In this document: positions 42,536 through 51,104 of the stretch, in pieces
Position numbering within the stretch: the first letter of the stretch is position 1
Layout of the letters: the number at the start of each line of letters is the position of its first letter
IMG/VR virus record: IMGVR_UViG_3300023174_000110
Coordinates: 1-64,000 of that record
DNA from: a virus
Length of the DNA stretch: 64,000 nt
Reading direction: 5' to 3' (one strand)
The notes under the pieces: generated by a model
Databases searched by the model: none
What the model was told of the DNA's origin: nothing
What the model saw: the letters and a program-made list of their open reading frames with translations, nothing else
Program-made: the position numbers and the translations under genes

Positions 42536-42874
42536 TTATTGATTAGCAGTTTCTAAGTAAGACAATAACAATTGTCCTCTATTATTGGCATCAGCAATTG
42601 CAGTAAATGAATCTCCTGTTTGTAGAATTAATTTACCTGTTAATAAAGTGGCGGCATCTCTAATAGGAATAGTGGTGTTTCTAATGATTGAAGTAACATT
42701 TGAACCTCTAACGTGATTTGCAGAAACTGTTACAGAATTGGTTGTATCTATATTTGAAACTTGAGCCAAAAGAATAACTGTGGTTACTCCAGCTGGTGCG
42801 GTATATATTGTCTGTTGAACTGTTGTTACATTCGCTGTAGTTGTTTTAAATGTGTTTAATGCTATTGTAGCCAT
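42536..42874 (-). CDS. small beta-sandwich fibre adaptor
   Basis: TIYTAP.GVTTVIL.AQVSN...KLIL.TGD; similar to 46520..46849. Confidence 0.65.
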   Translation of the reverse strand: MATIALNTFKTTTANVTTVQQTIYTAPAGVTTVILLAQVSNIDTTNSVTVSANHVRGSNVTSIIRNTTIPIRDAATLLTGKLILQTGDSFTAIADANNRGQLLLSYLETANQ

Positions 42875-42877
42875 TTT

Positions 42878-44656
42878 TTAAGTCTCCAGAGCAAGAATAT
42901 ATGGCGTCATTTCTGCAAAAAGACTTTTTGAGAAAGTTCTACCTGTAATGGTTGATGTTGATTGGTTAATTACTAATTCCGATACCTTAAAGTTTCCGTC
43001 TTGATCGGTAGATGTAGCAAACACTGCACCTTCACCAATTGTAATAATTTGTGATTCCACATTTGGTACCCCACCTGATTTTGGCAAAGAATTTATACTA
43101 GTACCAGCACCAACAAATTCAAATGTTTGGCCAGAAGCTCTTAATTGACTTTGTTGAAAAAATGAAACTGTTGTTCCACTTGGCCAACTAACAGGTAATG
43201 AAGTTTGAAATGTTACTCGTGTATTTCCTGCAGACAATGGAGTTGCCTCAGCAACTGAATAATAATTGTCTACATTATCTCCAGTAATTTTCATTACTAA
43301 ACCAGAATACGGTACGCTGGCGGTAATACCTAAATCGGTATTTGAACTAATTGTATTTAGGAAAATAGAGGTACAGGCCTCTGCCGATGTATTAGCAAAA
43401 CGGGCTGTCATTGCTAAAGAACCTTTACCATTAGCCACTAGACCTTTGTTACCAAAGTTAACGTTACAGTTACCCATTGAAGCAGTACCACCATTATCAG
43501 CTAAAAAAGCAGTGTCACAGAAAATGCCGTAAATAGAAACCAACTGAGAATATCCGTCATTGGTAATATGAATGCCTCGACCATTAGAATTTACTTGTGT
43601 AAATTGTGCAGAAATAATACTCTTATTTCCTGTTGATAAAGCTCCATCAACTTTAATGCCGGTACCATTTGAAGTAATAGAAGAACAATTATAAATGTAA
43701 GGACTACCTGTAATATTGGTTGAATATCTTGTTGTGTTGGCAGCAGGTGTCGTTCTTAAAGGAATACCAATCGTATAGGTGGATGTATTGGTTGGAAAAG
43801 GATTCCAATTTACATCCATTGTACAAACTCTAGTTGCGGCATTATAAGATGCCACATTTGAAAATTGTCCAGCACCAATACCGCCAGTAATAGTAATTCT
43901 CATACTATTATAATAATTATCGTAAGGCAAACCTGATCGTAGAGTGAACGTGTTTTGTGTTGCAGCTACCGTAGTATTGGCATCAATGACTAAATCTGGA
44001 AAAGCAATTGCAGATTTGGAATAATTTATAAATTTAAAACCGGTCACATAAGAATTGTTATTTACCCAAATAATATCTTTAGTTGGATCAGAAGGCTGAA
44101 TAATACAAGCTCTTTCACCAGCACCTACTAATTGTACGTTTTGTGGAAGAATTAAAGGATTAAGTTCTGTGTAAGTACCACCAAATACTTGAACGATATC
44201 AGTTGGTTGAGCTAAAGCTAATGCAGCACGAATGGTCGCTTTGGCGCCAGATGGTGTCGTTCCATCAAAAGTATCTGAACCGTTTGTTGAAACATAGTAT
44301 GTTTTACCTACAGCTCTTGTTGAAAGGTCAATAATGCGACCTGTTGTGAGCTGCATATACAATTTACCATCGACTAAATTACCAAACAATTCACCTGGTA
44401 ATAAGGTATTGGCTGGCGGAACATAACCTGCGGTATTACTTACTGTAATTCTATTATTGGTGGGAGTTGTATTCGCTTTGTTAAAAGCAGCTTGAGCAAA
44501 CGCTGCGGTTGCCATTGGAGTACCACCAGGAGTGACGGCATCGTGAACAACAATAACTTTCTTGTCCGTGTCTACTGTAACCTCGGCAAACGCACCGGTG
44601 AAGGTAGAGTGCTGGGCGGTGTTACCTTTTCTGAATTGTAATTGTGTAGCTGGCAT
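42878..44656 (-). CDS. tail fibre/spike with Mtd-N-like N-terminus and beta-helix-like region
   Basis: QLQFRKG.TAQH..FTGA..EVTVDTDK..VVHD..T.GG; YYVSTNGSD...G...A.ATI..AL. Confidence 0.75.
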   Translation of the reverse strand: MPATQLQFRKGNTAQHSTFTGAFAEVTVDTDKKVIVVHDAVTPGGTPMATAAFAQAAFNKANTTPTNNRITVSNTAGYVPPANTLLPGELFGNLVDGKLYMQLTTGRIIDLSTRAVGKTYYVSTNGSDTFDGTTPSGAKATIRAALALAQPTDIVQVFGGTYTELNPLILPQNVQLVGAGERACIIQPSDPTKDIIWVNNNSYVTGFKFINYSKSAIAFPDLVIDANTTVAATQNTFTLRSGLPYDNYYNSMRITITGGIGAGQFSNVASYNAATRVCTMDVNWNPFPTNTSTYTIGIPLRTTPAANTTRYSTNITGSPYIYNCSSITSNGTGIKVDGALSTGNKSIISAQFTQVNSNGRGIHITNDGYSQLVSIYGIFCDTAFLADNGGTASMGNCNVNFGNKGLVANGKGSLAMTARFANTSAEACTSIFLNTISSNTDLGITASVPYSGLVMKITGDNVDNYYSVAEATPLSAGNTRVTFQTSLPVSWPSGTTVSFFQQSQLRASGQTFEFVGAGTSINSLPKSGGVPNVESQIITIGEGAVFATSTDQDGNFKVSELVINQSTSTITGRTFSKSLFAEMTPYILALET

Positions 44657-44702: not shown

Positions 44703-46499
44703 TTAGGTCAACGTACCCATATCAAGAAGTACACTCGGATTTTCCCAAACAAAACCTAAATCAACATATGGAAAACCGGTACTAGTACCACCACCAGTAC
44801 CATTTATAGCAGTCAAAGTAGTCCATTGTAATCTTCCGTAACCATCAGTTATTAAGGACTGACCAGTAACACCATCATAATTTGGTAAAGTATATACTAC
44901 ATTACCGCTGGTGTTGGCAATTCTTACAGCACCGTTGGCTTGTAGTGTACCAGCAAAAATTGTGTTGCCCGTGACCAAACCACCGGTGAATGTGCCACTT
45001 CCGCCTCCACCTTGAATGGTGTTAGCGTAATTGAAAGCCGCTTGAGCCAATGTTGTAGCAATGTTTGCTTGACCATAAGCTAAAGTGATATTGGTATTTT
45101 GAGTATCATTAACACCTTGAGTATAGATCGTATTGGCTTGCGCTGAATTGGCAGTTGCCAAAGCAGCATTTGCATTGGCTCTAGCAATAAGGTCTATTGA
45201 ATCTGATATACCGGTATTGGCTCTATTAAAAGCCGCTTGAATAAATGTATTTTGACCTGAAGCAACACCTTGTAAATAGATTGTGTTTGCTGAAGCTGTA
45301 TTAGCTGTATTAAAAGCTGCTTGTGAAAAAGCATTTTGACCTAAAGTGATACCAAATATTTGTACTATATTGGCATTGGCTGAAGTCATTGCTCCTTGTA
45401 ACAAGGAGATATTGGTATTCTGAGTTGTATCTACACCTTGAGTATAGATGGTATTGGCTTGTGCTGAATTGGCAATTGCCAAAGCAGCATTGGCATTAGC
45501 AAAAGCCGAACCAGCAAATGTATTAACAAATCCAATATTTGTTGTGTTTGTATTACTTGCCGCATAAGCCGCATTAGCATATGTCTGACTGGCAATTCTA
45601 TCATAGGTTATACCATTATTGGTAAATTCCCAAGCATTGTTTGCTTCAGACCATAATAGTTTTGTATTGGCCAATGAACCACGATTAATTTCAATGCCAG
45701 CATTTGATGTTGGTACACCAGTTACATTTGAATTCAATGTAATGATGTTATCTTCAATATTTAAATTAACCGTGTTGGCGTAAAATGTTGTACCTGTAAC
45801 GGTTAAATTTCCTGATACTACTGTATCTCCAGAAATTGTTCCACCAGAAGAATTGAATTTGGTATTTGCAGTGTTAAAAGCTGCCTGTGCTTTAGCATCA
45901 GCGGCCACAATATTGGTATTTTGTGTAACATTGGTGCCTTGAATAACAACAATATTTGCTGTTGCTAAATTTGCAGTATCTCTGGCATACTGGTCAATTG
46001 AAGTAGTTACACCAGTATTTGCTTTATCAAAAGCTGCTTGAGCTTTTACATCAGCGGCTGTAATATTGGTATTTTGTGTAAGATTAACAGTTTCTATAAT
46101 ACTCAAACGAGTATTTTGAGTATCATCTATACCTTGAATATAAATTGTGTTTGCTGAAGCTGTATTGGCTGTAGCCAAAGCCGCATTTGCATTTGCTCTG
46201 GCAAATGGGTCAATTTGTGTATCACTAACAAGTGTATTGGCGTAATTGAAAGCTGCTTGAGCCAATGTTGTGGCAATATTTGCCTGACCATATGCAGAGG
46301 TTGCATAGGTGTTAACATTGGTTATTGTGGTGTTTTGATAATCATTTACTGAAAATAGTAAAGCAATATTGGCATTGGCACCAATAATTGAATCGTATAC
46401 ATTGACCGTATTTACAAGTAAATTATTAGCCGTGACTGTGTTAAAATAAAAGTCACCGGTTTGGTCTACTGCTAATGGTTGTATCTTTAAGGTGGTCAT
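44703..46499 (-). CDS. fibre protein with repetitive coiled-coil stalk
   Basis: Multiple AQAAFN.ANT and NTIY.QG..DTQNTNI repeats; EDNIITLN...AGIEINRG domain. Confidence 0.75.
   Translation of the reverse strand: MTTLKIQPLAVDQTGDFYFNTVTANNLLVNTVNVYDSIIGANANIALLFSVNDYQNTTITNVNTYATSAYGQANIATTLAQAAFNYANTLVSDTQIDPFARANANAALATANTASANTIYIQGIDDTQNTRLSIIETVNLTQNTNITAADVKAQAAFDKANTGVTTSIDQYARDTANLATANIVVIQGTNVTQNTNIVAADAKAQAAFNTANTKFNSSGGTISGDTVVSGNLTVTGTTFYANTVNLNIEDNIITLNSNVTGVPTSNAGIEINRGSLANTKLLWSEANNAWEFTNNGITYDRIASQTYANAAYAASNTNTTNIGFVNTFAGSAFANANAALAIANSAQANTIYTQGVDTTQNTNISLLQGAMTSANANIVQIFGITLGQNAFSQAAFNTANTASANTIYLQGVASGQNTFIQAAFNRANTGISDSIDLIARANANAALATANSAQANTIYTQGVNDTQNTNITLAYGQANIATTLAQAAFNYANTIQGGGGSGTFTGGLVTGNTIFAGTLQANGAVRIANTSGNVVYTLPNYDGVTGQSLITDGYGRLQWTTLTAINGTGGGTSTGFPYVDLGFVWENPSVLLDMGTLT
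45025..46292. repeat. intragenic direct repeats (45025-45077 / 46240-46292 and 45112-45176 / 45433-45497)
   Basis: 49/53 and 61/65 nt identical by manual alignment. Confidence 0.8.
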
Positions 46500-46519: not shown

Positions 46520-46849
46520 TTAACTAATTTCACTACCAAATACATTAAAACTCACCGTGTTAGTGTTAGCATTACAAGAAATAACATCAGTAGCAGCTAA
46601 TGTGATACCGAGTGTTAGTGTGGTTGTTTGATACCCAGCTAATAGAGTTCTATAGCTTACATAGTGTTTTGCTTCTAGAGTTGCACCTGCCGGCCGAACC
46701 GCCAAATCAAAATTAGCTGGAGTTGCTGACTGATTACAAATTGCAACGGTACTAACCACCGCACTAGTAGCTCCTGGTACGGTATACAAAGTTGTAACAG
46801 TATTAATTGCTGGATTGGATTGTCCTAGTACTTTATAAACTATCCCCAT
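46520..46849 (-). CDS. small beta-sandwich fibre adaptor
   Basis: YKVLGQSNP...TTLYTVP...VVSTVAICNQ...SFNVFGSEI. Confidence 0.65.
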   Translation of the reverse strand: MGIVYKVLGQSNPAINTVTTLYTVPGATSAVVSTVAICNQSATPANFDLAVRPAGATLEAKHYVSYRTLLAGYQTTTLTLGITLAATDVISCNANTNTVSFNVFGSEIS

Positions 46850-46859
46850 ATTTTTTCCT

Positions 46860-47522
46860 TTAAGCGCCCATTAATAAAAATGGACTAAGAATATTATTTG
46901 TTGTGTAATTAATGGTATATAGTGTCGTATTGGACGTGCCTACCGTAGTTACTTCAACAATAATATTGTTTGCTGGCGCTGAACTAGTTGTTAATAAAGA
47001 ACCAACAACCGTATAATAACTTCTAGGTTGTGCAACACCACCAATTACTAAAGTTGTATAATTAATATCTGTAGGTGTTACCGTTAAATTAAAAAATCTA
47101 TTTGAACCATTACCTAAAAAAGTATTAACCGTAGAAGTTAATACTCCGCCACTTCCACCAGAAGCATTATTTGCGGCATCAAAAGCTGCTTGAGCTAATT
47201 GTTGAGTGGCTGCATCACCAAATGTAATTGTTTTGGTGATTGTATTGGTTGTAATACTAATACCATTTGCGGCCGCTAAATTTAATGTGTCTGTAGGAGA
47301 TGTAGCAAGAACTAAAGATGAATTTGCATTAACAGTTGCAAATGATGATGTATTGGAAGCATTTGCACCAGAAGTAAATGCTACAATTGAATTGTTGGCG
47401 TTTTTATAAAATAATTTTCCATCGGCGTAATTGATCGCCAACTCACCAAATACTAGTGATGATGGTACATTATTTGCTACACCTGAATTTCTTAACTTTA
47501 CAGTCGTGTTTGCAATTGCCAT
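46860..47522 (-). CDS. short fibre/connector protein
   Basis: N-terminal PSSL.FGELAINYADGKLFYKN domain; ends SPFLLMGA. Confidence 0.7.
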   Translation of the reverse strand: MAIANTTVKLRNSGVANNVPSSLVFGELAINYADGKLFYKNANNSIVAFTSGANASNTSSFATVNANSSLVLATSPTDTLNLAAANGISITTNTITKTITFGDAATQQLAQAAFDAANNASGGSGGVLTSTVNTFLGNGSNRFFNLTVTPTDINYTTLVIGGVAQPRSYYTVVGSLLTTSSAPANNIIVEVTTVGTSNTTLYTINYTTNNILSPFLLMGA

Positions 47523-47526
47523 TTAC

Positions 47527-48210
47527 TTAAAAACTTCCGCCGTCCTTATCTAGTGTATCCGAAACAAATAAATCTGAAGTAGGAGTTTCTATTTCTTTAG
47601 CTCTTTCTTCATCAACTTTCTTTCGCTTTGCAGGAGTTAATTGTAAATATTCAATTTTTTGTGATAATTCAGCAATTGCTTTATCTTTATCAATATTAAT
47701 TTTCTCAATAATACCATTTTTTTGAATGATAATATTTTGTGAATTAGTAAGTTCAGCTTGTAATCTATTAACTTGGTCTTTTAAACTTTGTTGATTAACA
47801 TTTTGTGCTTTAATTTCTTCTAATTCTTTTTGAGTTTTAATCAATTCATTTCTAAACGTATCAACGTGTTGAACTTGATGTTTTACATTTTCATATTCAT
47901 TTTTAAGTTTGTCGGCTTCAGCAATTTGTTCATTTAAACCTCTAATGGTATTTAAATGCTCTTTAATACTATTTTCTAAATTTTGATACTTTTCTTTGTC
48001 AGAAACCTCTTTAGTATTTTGTATAGATTGATTATCTTTTTTTAAAGATTCAATAGTATTTTGTAAATCTTCAATTGCTTTAGCTTGATCTTCAATTGCT
48101 TCTTTACTAATTCTTTCATTTGTTTGTAATGATATGTTTCTAATTAAACAATCATTCATTGTAGCAATTAAATTTTCAATATAATAATTAACAAACTTTT
48201 CATTTCCCAT
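47527..48210 (-). CDS. coiled-coil protein
   Basis: Charged heptad-rich sequence, ends DGGSF. Confidence 0.7.
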   Translation of the reverse strand: MGNEKFVNYYIENLIATMNDCLIRNISLQTNERISKEAIEDQAKAIEDLQNTIESLKKDNQSIQNTKEVSDKEKYQNLENSIKEHLNTIRGLNEQIAEADKLKNEYENVKHQVQHVDTFRNELIKTQKELEEIKAQNVNQQSLKDQVNRLQAELTNSQNIIIQKNGIIEKINIDKDKAIAELSQKIEYLQLTPAKRKKVDEERAKEIETPTSDLFVSDTLDKDGGSF

Positions 48211-48230
48211 TTCAAACTCCTAAATTGTTG

Positions 48231-48248
48231 GGCCACCCGAAGGTGGCC
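48231..48248 (-). other. cUUCGg tetraloop hairpin
   Basis: GGCCACC-TTCG-GGTGGCC on the minus strand, intergenic, no U tract after it. Confidence 0.7.
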
Positions 48249-48280
48249 ACATAAAAAATAATATAAATTATAAAACTACT

Positions 48281-50257
48281 TTAGAATGTACCACCATCTA
48301 AAGCACTAGTCCAAACTGGAACACCAGCATTTGTAACAGTAAGAATTTGATTACTCCATGTTTGATCAGCGGTACCTGCGGCAGCAGTTACTAATTGACC
48401 GTCTGTGGAATTGCCATATATGATACCGTTTGTGGTAAATGTTGAACGACCTGTACCACCTTGACCAACAGTTAAACCAGAAATTGCCGAGAACGTTGCA
48501 GCTGTTAAACGGCCATAAGCATCAACAGTCAATGAAGATATTGTGTTGTTCGAAGCACCAGAACCTGTTGCTGAGAAGTTTGAATTAGCAAGAGTTTGTA
48601 GAGCACCTGTACCATTACCAACAAGAATTGCACCTGTTGTAAATGAACCTTGTCCTGTACCACCTCTTGCAACACCTAATGTACCAGAAGTAATTTGTGA
48701 AGTAGCAATTGCAATATCTTCAGTTGTAGCAGCTGTTACACGGCCATAAGGATCAACAGTAAGAGATGTAATTGTTCTTGAAGTACCTAATGTACCACCA
48801 GTTAACACATATGTTGTATTTGCCAATGTTGCAACAGTATTACTACCAGTGCCAATAACTAACTGACCTAATGTTAATGATGTTGTAGATGTTACAGAAG
48901 AATTGGCCTTATCAAATGCAGCTTGTGAGTGGTCGTTTAGATTGAGACCATTAGCAATAACTTTACCAAAAACACTTAATGTGCCATTGTTAGCAAAGGT
49001 TGCTACATAATTATTGTTTGCACGAATGTATACTTCTTTTGTAGTGTCACTTACATTAACATTAGTTTGTTCACCACCCAAATATAGTTCAGCAGTAGAA
49101 GCATCAATATTGCCACCAGCACGAACATGGATGTGATTTGGTGCGGTTGGATCAACAACAATATATTGGTTACCTGATGCGGCATATGCTTGATTTGGAT
49201 ACAAATTCAATACAGCGCCTGCATTACCATAAAAACCATCAGATACGGCTGTTGTGGCAATCAAATTACCTTTAACAAATCTCGCATTAACGTTTGCATG
49301 TCTAAAAGATGCATTAGCAACATCAATGCTATTACCAGTCAATTCAGGAGTGTAGTTATCAAATACGTGGTATTCTTTTGTACCAGCATCACGGAAGAAA
49401 CCGGTATGTCTGTTTGTAGAACCATCATTGTAATGAGCAGCAAAACCAATATCAACTGCATCAGATGTGTTATTTGAAGCTAAGATAATTAATGGATCAA
49501 CAACATTCAATGTGGATGTGTTAACTGTTGTGTGTGAGCCTTGAACTGTTAAGTTACCAGAAATTGTAATGTTGCCATCAATAGTCTGACTTGTGATTGC
49601 TGTATTGGAACGAACAACTGTATTATCGACATCTAAAGTTACTTGGTCACCAGAAACGTTACTTGTTATGCCAGCACCACCAACAACAGTAAGTGTGTCA
49701 CCGCCAGAAATGGTTGTAGTACCAGAATCACCATTTAAAGTAAATGATGTTGAAATTGATTGTGTCGAGATTGCTGTAACACGGCCGTTAGCGGCAACAG
49801 TAACAACTGGAATTGCAGTCGAAGAACCGTATGATCCAGCAGATAAACCGGGAATAGCATTAAGTGAAGCATTTAGTGTTACGTTACCTGTACCATTAAA
49901 ACCTACAGCACTAGCAGTAATGTCGCCACCAGAAATAGAAAAATCTCTAGAGTTTTGTAATTGCACAGCAGCATTTGCAGTACCTTGAATAGTACCAATA
50001 ATGTTGGCAGTAATGAAATTAAACGAAGCGTTGCCTGTGGCATCTCGTTTAACCAACGTATCTGGAGTGGCAGCATTAGTGGCATTATCAATGGCTTGCG
50101 TGTAGTATATACCACCAACGTTGATAGCACCATTACCTGCGGCAGTACCTAAGAATAATGTGTTTGATTGATACGAGTACGCTAATTCACCAGCAGCGAG
50201 CGAACTTGGGCGTCCTGTGCTCGATGAACGTTTAATTAAAATATTTGTATTTGCCAT
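48281..50257 (-). CDS. tail fibre protein
   Basis: IKRS...PSSLAAGELAY N-terminus, TVD.YGR.TAA and GGTG repeats, ends DGGTF. Confidence 0.8.
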   Translation of the reverse strand: MANTNILIKRSSSTGRPSSLAAGELAYSYQSNTLFLGTAAGNGAINVGGIYYTQAIDNATNAATPDTLVKRDATGNASFNFITANIIGTIQGTANAAVQLQNSRDFSISGGDITASAVGFNGTGNVTLNASLNAIPGLSAGSYGSSTAIPVVTVAANGRVTAISTQSISTSFTLNGDSGTTTISGGDTLTVVGGAGITSNVSGDQVTLDVDNTVVRSNTAITSQTIDGNITISGNLTVQGSHTTVNTSTLNVVDPLIILASNNTSDAVDIGFAAHYNDGSTNRHTGFFRDAGTKEYHVFDNYTPELTGNSIDVANASFRHANVNARFVKGNLIATTAVSDGFYGNAGAVLNLYPNQAYAASGNQYIVVDPTAPNHIHVRAGGNIDASTAELYLGGEQTNVNVSDTTKEVYIRANNNYVATFANNGTLSVFGKVIANGLNLNDHSQAAFDKANSSVTSTTSLTLGQLVIGTGSNTVATLANTTYVLTGGTLGTSRTITSLTVDPYGRVTAATTEDIAIATSQITSGTLGVARGGTGQGSFTTGAILVGNGTGALQTLANSNFSATGSGASNNTISSLTVDAYGRLTAATFSAISGLTVGQGGTGRSTFTTNGIIYGNSTDGQLVTAAAGTADQTWSNQILTVTNAGVPVWTSALDGGTF

Positions 50258-50299
50258 TTTTTTTCCTTATTATTAGGCTAATTGTTCCACTACTACTAT

Positions 50300-50536
50300 T
50301 TAGAAATTTCCACCGTCTATGGTCGCAACATTAATATTACCATTTGCATCCCTAAGAACTACTGTATTTGCTGCATTTTCCGTAGTGGTTAAACCACCAA
50401 CCGTGATTATTTTACCATTTCTATCACCAATAAAAAATGTATTGGATACAAAAGAATACGCCAATTCACCATCATCTAGATTGGACGGCCTTGTGTTTGC
50501 ATATGAACGGAGTATCTGTATGGTTGTATTGGCCAT
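50300..50536 (-). CDS. minimal fibre linker protein
   Basis: ILRS...PSNLDDGELAY domain followed by C-terminal DGGNF. Confidence 0.7.
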   Translation of the reverse strand: MANTTIQILRSYANTRPSNLDDGELAYSFVSNTFFIGDRNGKIITVGGLTTTENAANTVVLRDANGNINVATIDGGNF

Positions 50537-50760
50537 CAGAACTCTCCGGCATCCAAACTAGCAGCTGCTCCAGAAACTGGAGCCAATTTAAATGAATTCG
50601 TATCGGCTTCATAAACCACGACATCTCCATCAGCCGCACCCGTTATTGACAGGTCTGTGGCACTTTTTAATGTTCTGGCACCATAGGTAATCGACCTGAC
50701 CGCACTGGTTTTCTGAGTATTAACTTGCACATTGACTGTGCCTATTACTTGTCCTGGCAT
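50536..50760 (-). CDS. small fibre adaptor
   Basis: L...TD......DGDVVVY motif, ends DAGEF. Confidence 0.65.
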   Translation of the reverse strand: MPGQVIGTVNVQVNTQKTSAVRSITYGARTLKSATDLSITGAADGDVVVYEADTNSFKLAPVSGAAASLDAGEF

Positions 50761-50762
50761 TT

Positions 50763-51104
50763 TTAAAACCTAGTTACTTGTGGAAGAACACTAACAGTAC
50801 CTTCTAGAACTCTAGTGATTGTGTTAGATGAATCTTTAATTGCCACGTCATATACATATCTGCCTGCTGCAATATTTGCTGTCGTATTTGCAGCCAGATT
50901 TAAAATAATACCACCTTCTGTTGGAGTAGGAATGGTTACAATAAAAGTGGCTGTAGCATTAGCAGAATAATAAGACCTTCTTATCTGTCCTTTAGCCTGC
51001 ATGCCAGTCAAATCATAAGCCACACCATCAACATCATCTAAAGTGATAGTTGTTGAAAAGGTTGTACCTTGTTCTAAAAATAAATCTTGGTAACCGGCCG
51101 GCAT
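50763..51104 (-). CDS. Ig-like fibre-anchoring adaptor (BppU-like)
   Basis: L.LEQGTTF, DLTG..A..QIR, GRYVYDV, TRVLEG.V.V.P.VT. Confidence 0.7.
   Translation of the reverse strand: MPAGYQDLFLEQGTTFSTTITLDDVDGVAYDLTGMQAKGQIRRSYYSANATATFIVTIPTPTEGGIILNLAANTTANIAAGRYVYDVAIKDSSNTITRVLEGTVSVLPQVTRF

What the first reader, a model, noticed from the sequence alone, without database searches (positions are those of the whole stretch)
46860..50760. Plug-and-socket code: C-terminal D[GA]GxF peptides followed by N-terminal GEL(A) domains
Seen: four consecutive genes end in DAGEF (50536), DGGNF (50300), DGGTF (48281) and DGGSF (47527). Three genes in the same run start with the same small domain, ...R.S....P.SL..GELA[YI] (50300, 48281, 46860). 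The 78-aa protein is little more than socket plus plug. A further internal socket occurs in 42878 (LLPGELFGNLVDGKLY) and an internal plug-like FDGGS in 41169. Inference: each terminal peptide docks into the next protein's N-domain, building a chained or branched fibre in gene order. The charged coiled-coil protein ending DGGSF could be a chaperone or decoy.
Basis: partly seen in the sequence, partly recalled or inferred. Interest (0 to 1): 0.75.

Follow-up and report, generated by a model that had tools for sequence, protein, structure and literature searches.

The report
Serial T4-type fibre plug-socket joints
Four neighbouring tail-fibre genes of an uncultured T4-like aquatic phage end in a five-residue peptide (Asp-Gly/Ala-Gly-x-Phe), and the next fibre gene starts with a small cap domain; the same sequence pair occurs where gp36 meets gp37 in the phage T4 long tail fibre, so the proteins are probably clipped end to end, though binding is untested.

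Summary
Four consecutive minus-strand genes end in DAGEF, DGGNF, DGGTF and DGGSF, where 0.0016 such ends are expected by chance in the window. Three genes begin with one ~47-residue domain.

The pattern is strongly conserved. In 67 non-redundant related viral contigs, 155 of 158 genes that start with this domain directly follow a gene ending D[GAMS]G.[FY](S).

The domain is the gp37 N-terminal type. A profile built without T4 hits T4 gp37 residues 7-49 (E 2e-9). T4 gp36 ends in DFGYY, and 115 of 120 gp36 homologues keep [QE]DFGYY. The domain is distantly related to Mtd_N (hhalign E 4e-5).

Canonical Mtd_N genes in unrelated phages, including one pair in this window, follow tails of the form D-[YFWL]-G-x-[LIV]. 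The peptide sits at the exact C-terminus or one residue from it in 174 of 174 cases that have the motif.

Best reading (0.68): these are T4 gp36-gp37-type joints reused in series. The 78-aa protein is a pure adaptor. The 227-aa protein is a long helix with a floppy plug-bearing tail, and its role is unresolved.

Physical binding is not shown; a single-chain AlphaFold test was inconclusive. I found no solved structure of the joint and no paper that states the motif.

Earlier follow-ups of this scan reached the same reading on at least 32 other genomes.

The parts
50763..51104 (-). 113-aa LtfC-like beta-sandwich protein, the conserved neighbour at the head of the cassette. Candidate virion anchor (inferred).
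   Evidence: PHROG phrog_3304 'L-shaped tail fiber protein assembly', E 2e-20. Pfam LtfC 19.7 bits, below the 27-bit cut-off. Present in 70 related loci as family 2. A homologue heads the same cassette in Limnohabitans phage DC31.
50536..50760 (-). 74-aa protein ending in the plug DAGEF (codons 50539-50553). No socket.
   Evidence: In family 9, 24 of 28 members end D[GA]G.F. The related families 10 and 18 end DMGFF, DSGFF, DAGTF or DGGTY.
50300..50536 (-). 78-aa adaptor: socket (residues 1-47, 50396-50536), variable spacer, plug DGGNF (50303-50317). Its ATG overlaps the upstream stop (ATGA).
   Evidence: Socket HMM E 2e-26. Alignment A5 shows an invariant socket and invariant D74, G76 and F78, with a spacer of variable length. 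The gene is absent where a family-18 gene directly precedes the fibre.
48281..50257 (-). 658-aa fibre: socket (residues 1-48, 50114-50257), shaft, plug DGGTF (48284-48298).
   Evidence: Socket HMM E 7e-23. In family 0, 75 of 77 members end D[GA]G.F. PHROG phrog_15769 and phrog_697.
48211..48280 (-). Intergenic leader of the coiled-coil gene: TATAAT-like motif, GC-rich hairpin with a UUCG loop, AGGAG ribosome-binding site.
   Evidence: The hairpin (about -16 kcal/mol) occurs only in the 5 closest of 48 distinct relatives. The TATA(T)AAT motif and the AGGAGTTTGAA site occur in most.
47527..48210 (-). 227-aa all-helical coiled-coil protein with a disordered C-terminal tail ending in the plug DGGSF (47530-47544). 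No socket.
   Evidence: AF2 predicts one helix over residues 4-189 (pLDDT >90) and a tail over 203-225 (pLDDT <50). 586 homologous clusters; 118 of the top 120 end D[GA]G.F. No cultured-phage homologue. No longer fused forms found.
46860..47522 (-). 220-aa fibre protein: socket of the gp37-N type (GELAINYADGKLFYK; residues 3-48, 47379-47516). Ends in a different tail, SPFLLMGA.
   Evidence: Socket HMM E 1e-19. Aligns with the T4 gp37 N-terminus. In relatives the tail type LMGA is followed by the 109-aa family.
44703..46499 (-). 598-aa fibre ending in DMGTLT (44706-44723), the second plug class (D-hydrophobic-G-x-hydrophobic plus one residue).
   Evidence: Relatives end FDYGTL or FDYGSLA before a canonical Mtd_N gene.
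42878..44656 (-). 592-aa fibre/spike with a canonical Mtd_N domain at its N-terminus (residues 7-39, 44540-44638).
   Evidence: Pfam PF18454 E 1.2e-10, 41.5 bits against a 26.3-bit cut-off. phmmer to Bordetella phage Mtd 1YU0, E 1.5e-13 over residues 3-112.

Best explanation
This is the tail-fibre gene cluster of a T4-like aquatic myophage. Separate fibre proteins are joined by one small, reusable joint.

The joint has two parts. The 'plug' is a short peptide at the very C-terminus of the virion-proximal protein: hydrophobic-D-[G/A]-G-x-F-COOH. The 'socket' is the ~47-residue N-terminal cap domain of the next, more distal protein: I.I.[KR].S....P..L..GE[LI]A. Both proteins are presumably trimers. 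This is the sequence pair found at the T4 gp36 C-terminus and the gp37 N-terminus, and the socket is a diverged relative of the Mtd_N beta-prism.

Most likely order, N-proximal to C-distal: 74-aa protein, 78-aa adaptor (socket plus plug only), 658-aa fibre, 220-aa protein. A second joint of the same kind, DMGTLT to canonical Mtd_N, links the 598-aa and 592-aa proteins.

The 227-aa protein is a ~28-nm helical rod with a floppy tail ending in the same plug. It most likely binds one of the same sockets, either as a whisker-like accessory or as an assembly helper.

Shown here: the motifs, their conservation, their adjacency, their C-terminal position, and the sequence match to T4. Inferred: physical docking, the order of the chain, and the role of the rod.
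For: 1. The motifs are real and far beyond chance.
2. In 67 non-redundant related contigs, 155 of 158 genes that start with the socket directly follow a gene ending D[GAMS]G.[FY](S). The odds ratio is 526, although shared synteny inflates it.
3. Plug and socket persist while the proteins around them are exchanged. Upstream partners come from families 9, 10, 18, 66 and 76; at least 10 different families follow the coiled coil.
4. The 78-aa adaptor is optional. Where it is missing, a plug-bearing gene directly precedes the fibre.
5. Within one family (family 6), the tail class switches with the class of the next gene: DYGxL precedes Mtd_N in 8 of 9, IAFS/IALG precedes family 7 in 11 of 13, and LMGA precedes family 16 in 2 of 2.
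6. The T4 link: gp36 ends DFGYY, and gp37 begins with the socket. A socket HMM seeded without T4 hits gp37 residues 7-49 with 32.7 bits, and does not hit gp34, gp35 or gp36. Among gp36 homologues, 115 of 120 end [QE]DFGYY, and distant ones end IDFGSY, LDYGIF or LDYGEF. [quoted passage not shown]
7. Canonical Mtd_N genes from a broad IMG/VR sample follow D.G.-hydrophobic tails in 33 of 53 non-redundant cases. Other gene pairs do so in 11 of 286. The p-value is 1e-22, and the upstream genes fall into at least 7 unlinked families.
8. Cultured examples: BPP-1 Bbp9 ...DLGGIA precedes Mtd; Roseobacter phage CRP-3 ...DFGSI; Pseudomonas phage AH02 gp14, which is a P22 head-binding domain ending ...NLGGLA.
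9. The motif lies at the exact end (143 cases) or one residue from it (31 cases), and never further in. This is expected if the chain end enters a closed pocket.
10. The plug occurs on unrelated folds: a beta fibre, tiny proteins, and the disordered tail of a helix. It therefore behaves as a short linear docking motif and not as part of a fold.
11. The socket is N-terminal in 149 of the top 150 of 10,678 matching cluster representatives, on bodies of 70 to 2,318 aa.
12. Limnohabitans phage DC31 has the same cassette without the coiled coil: its fibre ends DGGTY and is directly followed by a socket gene.
Against: - No binding or structure was obtained. AF2 on a natural read-through fusion of adaptor, linker and fibre N-terminus gave mean pLDDT 58.7, with plug and linker below 50. 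Foldseek found nothing.
- Adjacency statistics are inflated by inherited synteny.
- Mutual information between plug and socket positions did not discriminate between candidate partners.
- There are four DGGxF plugs but only three N-terminal sockets of that type. The 658-aa fibre's plug is followed by a gene without a socket, so strict gene-order docking fails at that step.
- 20 of 53 non-redundant canonical Mtd_N genes follow other kinds of tails (MMMGA, AIAVALG, VVII) or none. Cyanophage P-RSM4 has no plug upstream.
- That the C-terminus of gp36, rather than another part of it, contacts gp37 is inferred from fibre polarity. The papers I read do not state it.
Confidence: 0.68

Rival explanations
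1. The terminal peptide is a tag read by a shared assembly factor and does not bind the next protein. The factor could be a trimerisation chaperone of the gp57A or gp38 kind, a tail-specific protease, or a common hub on the baseplate. Adjacency to socket genes would then be inherited gene order only.
For: The same peptide sits on four very different proteins, one of them a coiled coil that may not be in the virion. There is one more plug than there are sockets of that type. Some Mtd_N genes have no such peptide upstream.
Against: The tail class switches with the class of the next gene inside one family. The pairing recurs in unrelated phage lineages with unrelated upstream proteins. In T4, the proteins carrying the pair are known to bind each other.
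Confidence: 0.14
2. The peptide is an intrinsic end-cap that closes or registers the protein's own trimer, in the manner of a minimal foldon. The N-terminal domain independently caps the next trimer, and the two do not touch.
For: Both elements lie at the chain ends of presumably trimeric fibres. Gly-rich turns ending in an aromatic residue could pack on a three-fold axis.
Against: In the coiled-coil protein the peptide follows ~20 residues predicted to be disordered. It also ends 65-78-aa proteins whose spacers vary in length. It co-varies in class with the next gene. A cap for the protein's own fold would not need a socket-bearing neighbour in 155 of 158 cases.
Confidence: 0.1
3. All plug-bearing proteins compete for, or share, one type of socket. 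The result is a branched or alternative-head assembly rather than a linear chain in gene order.
For: There are four similar plugs and three similar sockets, plus a possible internal one. Branched receptor-binding complexes are known in other phages (CBA120, G7C; from my own knowledge). This is a variant of the best explanation and not exclusive of it.
Against: Each junction keeps its own flavour of plug: [LVA]D[AMS]G.F before the adaptor, [KER]DGG[ST]F on the coiled coil, [LIM]DGG[QT]F on the fibre. This suggests dedicated partners.
Confidence: 0.06
4. Chance, or a DNA-level feature such as a recombination linker at gene boundaries.
For: None, beyond the location at gene boundaries.
Against: Chance expectation is 0.0016 per window. 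Codon choice differs between copies while the peptide is kept. The peptide is conserved at 45-50% protein identity across 77 loci.
Confidence: 0.02

Closest known systems
Phage T4 long tail fibre, distal half: the gp36-gp37 joint
   Same: gp36 ends ...QDFGYY* and the next gene, gp37, begins with the same N-terminal domain ([33 protein letters not shown]). It shares the invariant S, P, L, G and E of the window's sockets. The genes are adjacent on the same strand, and the proximal protein comes first. Binding of trimeric gp36 to the N-terminal region of gp37 is established (PMC3004832).
   Different: T4 uses the joint once. This phage uses it at least four times in a row, with a 78-aa pure adaptor and a coiled-coil protein carrying the plug. 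None of the window's proteins matches the gp36 body (PF03903). Plug position 2 is G or A here and F or Y in gp36. I found no deposited structure of the joint, and the 2026 T4 preprint models it only at low resolution.
Bordetella phage BPP-1 tail fibre protein Bbp9 plus major tropism determinant Mtd (Pfam Mtd_N PF18454; PDB 1YU0)
   Same: The window's 592-aa protein has a canonical Mtd_N (E 1.2e-10; E 1.5e-13 to 1YU0). It follows a gene ending DMGTLT, and BPP-1 Mtd likewise follows Bbp9, which ends ...ADLGGIA. [quoted passage not shown]
   Different: The three GELA-type sockets do not reach Pfam's Mtd_N threshold. They are only remotely similar to it (hhalign probability 70%, E 4e-5). BPP-1 is a podovirus with one such joint and a DGR-diversified head.
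Branched or anchored receptor-binding protein complexes (CBA120 TSP1-4, G7C gp63.1/gp66, KP32-type anchor-branch pairs)
   Same: Separate receptor-binding proteins are assembled through small dedicated N-terminal docking modules, which allows modular exchange. This comparison is from my own knowledge and was not tested here.
   Different: Those systems use other domains (T4 gp10-like XD domains, conserved N-terminal anchor peptides). As far as I know they do not use a five-residue C-terminal peptide paired with a gp37-N/Mtd_N cap.

Membership tests
T4 gp36-gp37-type fibre joint | The proximal protein ends, at the extreme C-terminus, in D-x-G-x-aromatic/hydrophobic. | tested here: met
   The window has DAGEF, DGGNF, DGGTF, DGGSF and DMGTLT. 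T4 gp36 has DFGYY. The motif lies 0 or 1 residue from the end in 174 of 174 motif-bearing cases.
T4 gp36-gp37-type fibre joint | The distal protein begins with the gp37 N-terminal domain. | tested here: met
   An HMM seeded only from relatives of the window hits T4 gp37 residues 7-49 (32.7 bits, E 2e-9 at Z=1000) and the three window N-termini (E 1e-19 to 2e-26). Alignment A3.
T4 gp36-gp37-type fibre joint | The two genes are adjacent, on the same strand, with the proximal gene first. | tested here: met
   True for three of the four DGGxF plugs in the window and for 155 of 158 sockets in relatives. The exception is the 658-aa fibre followed by the coiled coil.
T4 gp36-gp37-type fibre joint | The two proteins physically bind. 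| not testable with these tools
   Only single-chain AF2 is available, and the fusion model was inconclusive (mean pLDDT 58.7).
Phage_T4_gp36 (PF03903) protein family | Match to the gp36 body domain. | tested here: not met
   T4 gp36 matches PF03903 at E 1e-52, but none of the window's proteins matches it at E <= 0.1. The joint is shared; the protein bodies are not.
Mtd_N (PF18454) | Pfam match above the gathering score at the N-terminus. | tested here: met
   Applies to the 592-aa protein only: 41.5 bits against a cut-off of 26.3, residues 7-39.
Mtd_N (PF18454) | Same test for the three GELA-type sockets. | tested here: inconclusive
   No Pfam hit at E <= 0.1 to 1. Profile-profile comparison gives probability 70%, E 4e-5 over 38 columns. 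tblastn of the 78-aa protein reaches the canonical Mtd_N start of cyanophage fibres at E 0.05.
LtfC-like beta-sandwich (PF23926) | Pfam match above the gathering score. | tested here: not met
   The 113-aa protein scores 19.7 bits against a cut-off of 27. The PHROG relative phrog_3304 matches at E 2e-20.

The most novel reading that the evidence does not exclude
Tail-fibre assembly order can be read from sequence by a small docking code. Classes of C-terminal tail peptides would each match a class of N-terminal domain or small cap protein of a following gene. Candidate classes are D-G-G-x-F, D-[YFW]-G-x-[LI], [LM]MGA, IAFS and VVII. This would let phages build, extend and re-head fibres from interchangeable segments. 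Within this code, the plug-bearing coiled-coil rod would act as a registration chaperone or decoy: it would occupy the socket of the distal fibre until the true partner displaces it.
Probability: 0.3. Interest if true: 0.75.

Novelty: new variant of a known kind. Interest (0 to 1): 0.55.

Why it matters
If the peptide-and-cap pair is a true joint, the order in which fibre proteins assemble could be read from a genome, for uncultured phages too. The socket profile alone matches 10,678 protein clusters.

It would also say where the atomic contact lies in the T4 gp36-gp37 junction, for which I found no deposited structure. And it names a five-residue handle and a ~47-residue cap that could be tested as a natural way to swap receptor-binding segments between phages of laboratory bacteria.

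It is not a new principle. Serial assembly of fibre proteins is textbook T4 biology, and Mtd_N is already presumed to be an attachment domain.

Tried and rejected
- blastn of the region against cultured phages found no match.
A 5-sequence alignment worked.
- AF2 on a natural in-frame read-through fusion, with a 22-row paired alignment: 78-aa adaptor, 15 codons of intergenic sequence with TAA read as G, then the first 120 residues of the 658-aa fibre. The model was low-confidence and the plug scored pLDDT below 50. This is inconclusive, because a single chain cannot form the trimeric cap and the tool returns no coordinates for contact analysis. Foldseek with this model found nothing at E <= 0.001.
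- Mutual information between plug positions and socket columns gave similar background for the fibre's plug and the coiled coil's plug. It cannot assign partners.
- A search for longer, fused forms of the coiled-coil protein found none. tblastn of that protein against cultured phages found none either.
- PHROG hits of the coiled-coil family are generic coiled-coil noise.
- A literature search for 'Mtd_N' was swamped by mtDNA papers. The BPP-1 cryo-EM paper could not be fetched. The motif strings appear in no phage paper in the library.
- Rejected: a DNA-level recombination linker, because the codons differ.
- Rejected: the internal FDGGS of the 452-aa protein as a plug, because of the position rule.


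Full report
**Context.** The window is the first 64 kb of a 91.5-kb IMG/VR viral record. All genes lie on the minus strand. The major capsid protein is 64% identical to those of Pelagibacter phage Mosig and Methylophilales phage Melnitz, so this is a T4-like aquatic myophage. The finding lies in the fibre gene block downstream of the baseplate genes. In order, that block holds:
- a 2,081-aa VrlC-like protein;
- a 733-aa fibre with an S74 chaperone domain;
- a 113-aa LtfC-like protein;
- then the genes of interest.

**Observation.** Codons differ between the copies, so selection acts on the peptide. A strict match is expected 0.0016 times among the window's 67 genes. In the whole record, DGGxF followed by a stop occurs three times, all in this cluster.

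**Conservation in relatives.** Seventy-nine related loci, down to about 40% identity of the 658-aa fibre, were fetched. Of their 1,137 plus-strand ORFs, 228 end in D[GA]G.F. After clustering:
- the fibre family keeps the peptide in 75 of 77 members;
- the coiled-coil family in 76 of 77;
- the 78-aa family in 32 of 49, the others ending DAGNFS or DGGIFS;
- the 74-aa family in 24 of 28.

In 67 non-redundant loci, 155 of 158 genes that begin with the socket are immediately preceded by a gene ending D[GAMS]G.[FY](S). Shared synteny inflates this number. Three observations do not depend on synteny:
1. The proteins carrying the plug upstream, and those carrying the socket downstream of the coiled coil, belong to many different families.
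2. The 78-aa adaptor is dispensable. Where it is missing, a plug-bearing gene directly precedes the fibre. In some relatives it starts with GTG, so my ATG-only ORF caller missed it at first.
3. Inside one family with a common N-terminus, the tail class changes together with the class of the next gene. DYGxL precedes a canonical Mtd_N gene in 8 of 9 cases. IAFS/IALG precedes a 108-aa family in 11 of 13. LMGA precedes a 109-aa family in 2 of 2.

**What the socket is.** tblastn of the 78-aa protein reaches the N-termini of giant cyanophage structural proteins, which begin with a textbook Mtd_N sequence. The window's 592-aa protein carries a canonical Mtd_N (Pfam E 1.2e-10) and matches Bordetella phage Mtd at E 1.5e-13. 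A profile-profile comparison of the GELA-type sockets with canonical Mtd_N gives probability 70% and E 4e-5, which indicates a remote relationship.

The match to T4 is much closer. T4 gp37 begins [39 protein letters not shown]. The preceding gene, gp36, ends ...IKDSVQDFGYY. A socket HMM seeded only from relatives of this window scores gp37 residues 7-49 at 32.7 bits, and it does not hit gp34, gp35 or gp36. Of 120 gp36 homologues, 115 end [QE]DFGYY; the most distant end IDFGSY, LDYGIF or LDYGEF.

The T4 literature states that trimeric gp36 binds the N-terminal region of gp37 (PMC3004832). The sequence pair in this window is therefore the one that flanks a biochemically established fibre joint.

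**Generality.** A broad sample of canonical Mtd_N genes from IMG/VR shows the same rule with a second flavour of plug. In 33 of 53 non-redundant cases the upstream gene ends D-[YFWLC]-G-x-[LIVA], sometimes with one more residue, against 11 of 286 for other gene pairs (p 1e-22). These upstream genes fall into at least seven unlinked families.

Cultured examples:
- BPP-1 Bbp9 ends ...DLGGIA and precedes Mtd.
- Roseobacter phage CRP-3 gp31 ends ...DFGSI.
- Pseudomonas phage AH02 gp14 is a P22 tailspike head-binding domain ending ...NLGGLA. This is direct evidence that the plug-bearing partner is the virion-proximal one.

Other Mtd_N subtypes follow other tails (MMMGA, AIAVALG, VVII). The window contains one joint of the canonical kind: the 598-aa protein ends DMGTLT and precedes the 592-aa Mtd_N protein.

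Across both samples the motif is at the exact C-terminus in 143 upstream genes, one residue from it in 31, and never further in.

The GELA-type socket profile matches 10,678 of 1.84 billion cluster representatives at E <= 1e-3. In 149 of the top 150 the match starts within the first ten residues. The matched proteins are 70 to 2,318 aa long, and 43 of the 150 also end in a plug.

**The coiled-coil protein.** AF2 with 34 homologues predicts a single helix over residues 4-189 (pLDDT above 90). A short second helix follows, then a ~20-residue low-confidence tail that ends in DGGSF. The family has 586 clusters, and 118 of the top 120 end D[GA]G.F. Automated names such as 'chromosome segregation ATPase' are coiled-coil misannotations.

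It has no cultured-phage homologue and no fused forms were found. Its gene has its own conserved TATA(T)AAT-like motif and a strong ribosome-binding site.

In Limnohabitans phage DC31 (Pakpunavirus) the same cassette lacks this gene. The order there is an LtfC-like protein, a small protein ending ESGQY, a fibre with a socket that ends DGGTY, and a socket protein beginning ...GELAVNYTDGKLFYKK. This makes the 220-aa protein the likely partner of the 658-aa fibre, and the coiled coil an added element that uses the same plug.

I cannot tell whether it is a fibritin-like whisker or a chaperone or decoy. T4 fibritin is thought to touch the gp36-gp37 junction.

**Mechanism and its limits.** I infer that the three C-terminal tails of a proximal trimer insert into, or clasp, the N-terminal cap of the distal trimer. 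A plausible detail is pairing of the plug's Asp and terminal carboxylate with the cap's conserved basic residue(s); that detail is speculation.

The only structural test open to me was inconclusive. It was single-chain AF2 on a natural in-frame read-through of the adaptor and the fibre N-terminus. Covariation analysis could not assign partners.

The PDB holds no gp36 chain and no GELA-type socket. A 2026 T4 preprint models (gp36)3-(gp37)3 only at low resolution. No phage paper in the library contains the motif strings.

**Relation to earlier notes of this scan.** After reaching the T4 link, I found that follow-ups on at least 32 other genomes had reported the same plug-and-socket reading, with the same closest known system. 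They are not independent evidence.

- the position rule for the motif;
- the within-family switching of tails;
- the AH02 head-binding adaptor;
- the DC31 cassette without the coiled coil;
- the fold prediction of the coiled-coil protein;
- the census of the socket profile.

**Verdict.** I rate it a new variant of a known kind.

Noticed in passing
window 44703-46499 and 42878-44656: A second joint class occurs in the same cluster. The 598-aa fibre ends DMGTLT, and the next gene starts with a canonical Mtd_N that is 58% identical to the N-terminus of Bordetella phage BPP-1 Mtd. Relatives use FDYGTL or FDYGSLA.
   Followed up: yes
window 46860-47522 / 46520-46849, and 42878-44656 / 42536-42874: Other tail classes pair with small ~110-aa genes: ...FLLMGA precedes the 109-aa gene and ...YILALET precedes the 112-aa gene. 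In relatives, the tail class predicts the family of the next gene (LMGA with family 16, IAFS/IALG and LALEx with family 7, IVFGF with family 14).
   Followed up: partly
window 48211-48280: The leader of the coiled-coil gene has a TATAAT-like motif, a GC-rich hairpin with a UUCG loop (about -16 kcal/mol, no U-tract) and AGGAG. The hairpin occurs only in the 5 closest of 48 relatives. The TATA(T)AAT motif and the ribosome-binding site occur in most, which suggests a separate late promoter for this gene.
   Followed up: partly
L087 (Pseudomonas phage AH02, 3426-5404): A split tailspike. gp14 is a 190-aa P22-type head-binding domain that ends ...NLGGLA, and gp15 starts with Mtd_N. This looks like an adaptor-plus-head arrangement using the same joint.
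   Followed up: partly
L169 (Limnohabitans phage DC31, 4344-7167): A 76-kb Pakpunavirus carries the same four-gene cassette as the T4-like phages (LtfC-like protein, small plug protein, socket-fibre-plug, socket protein). The cassette therefore appears to move between myovirus lineages.
   Followed up: partly
proteins P0273-P0390 (homologues of window 47527-48210): The coiled-coil family is labelled 'chromosome segregation ATPase' or 'SbcCD ATPase subunit' by one source. These look like coiled-coil misannotations.
   Followed up: no
proteins P0141, P0165, P0150, P0242: Several short representatives in the public protein library end in peptides that look like translated sequencing-adaptor read-through (for example ...IGRASCRERV...RSEEHTSELQSH). 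Their C-termini are likely artefacts.
   Followed up: no
window 50300-50536 and relatives L006, L009-L011, L013, L043: In some relatives the 78-aa adaptor gene starts with GTG directly after the upstream stop codon. ATG-only gene calling misses it there.
   Followed up: yes
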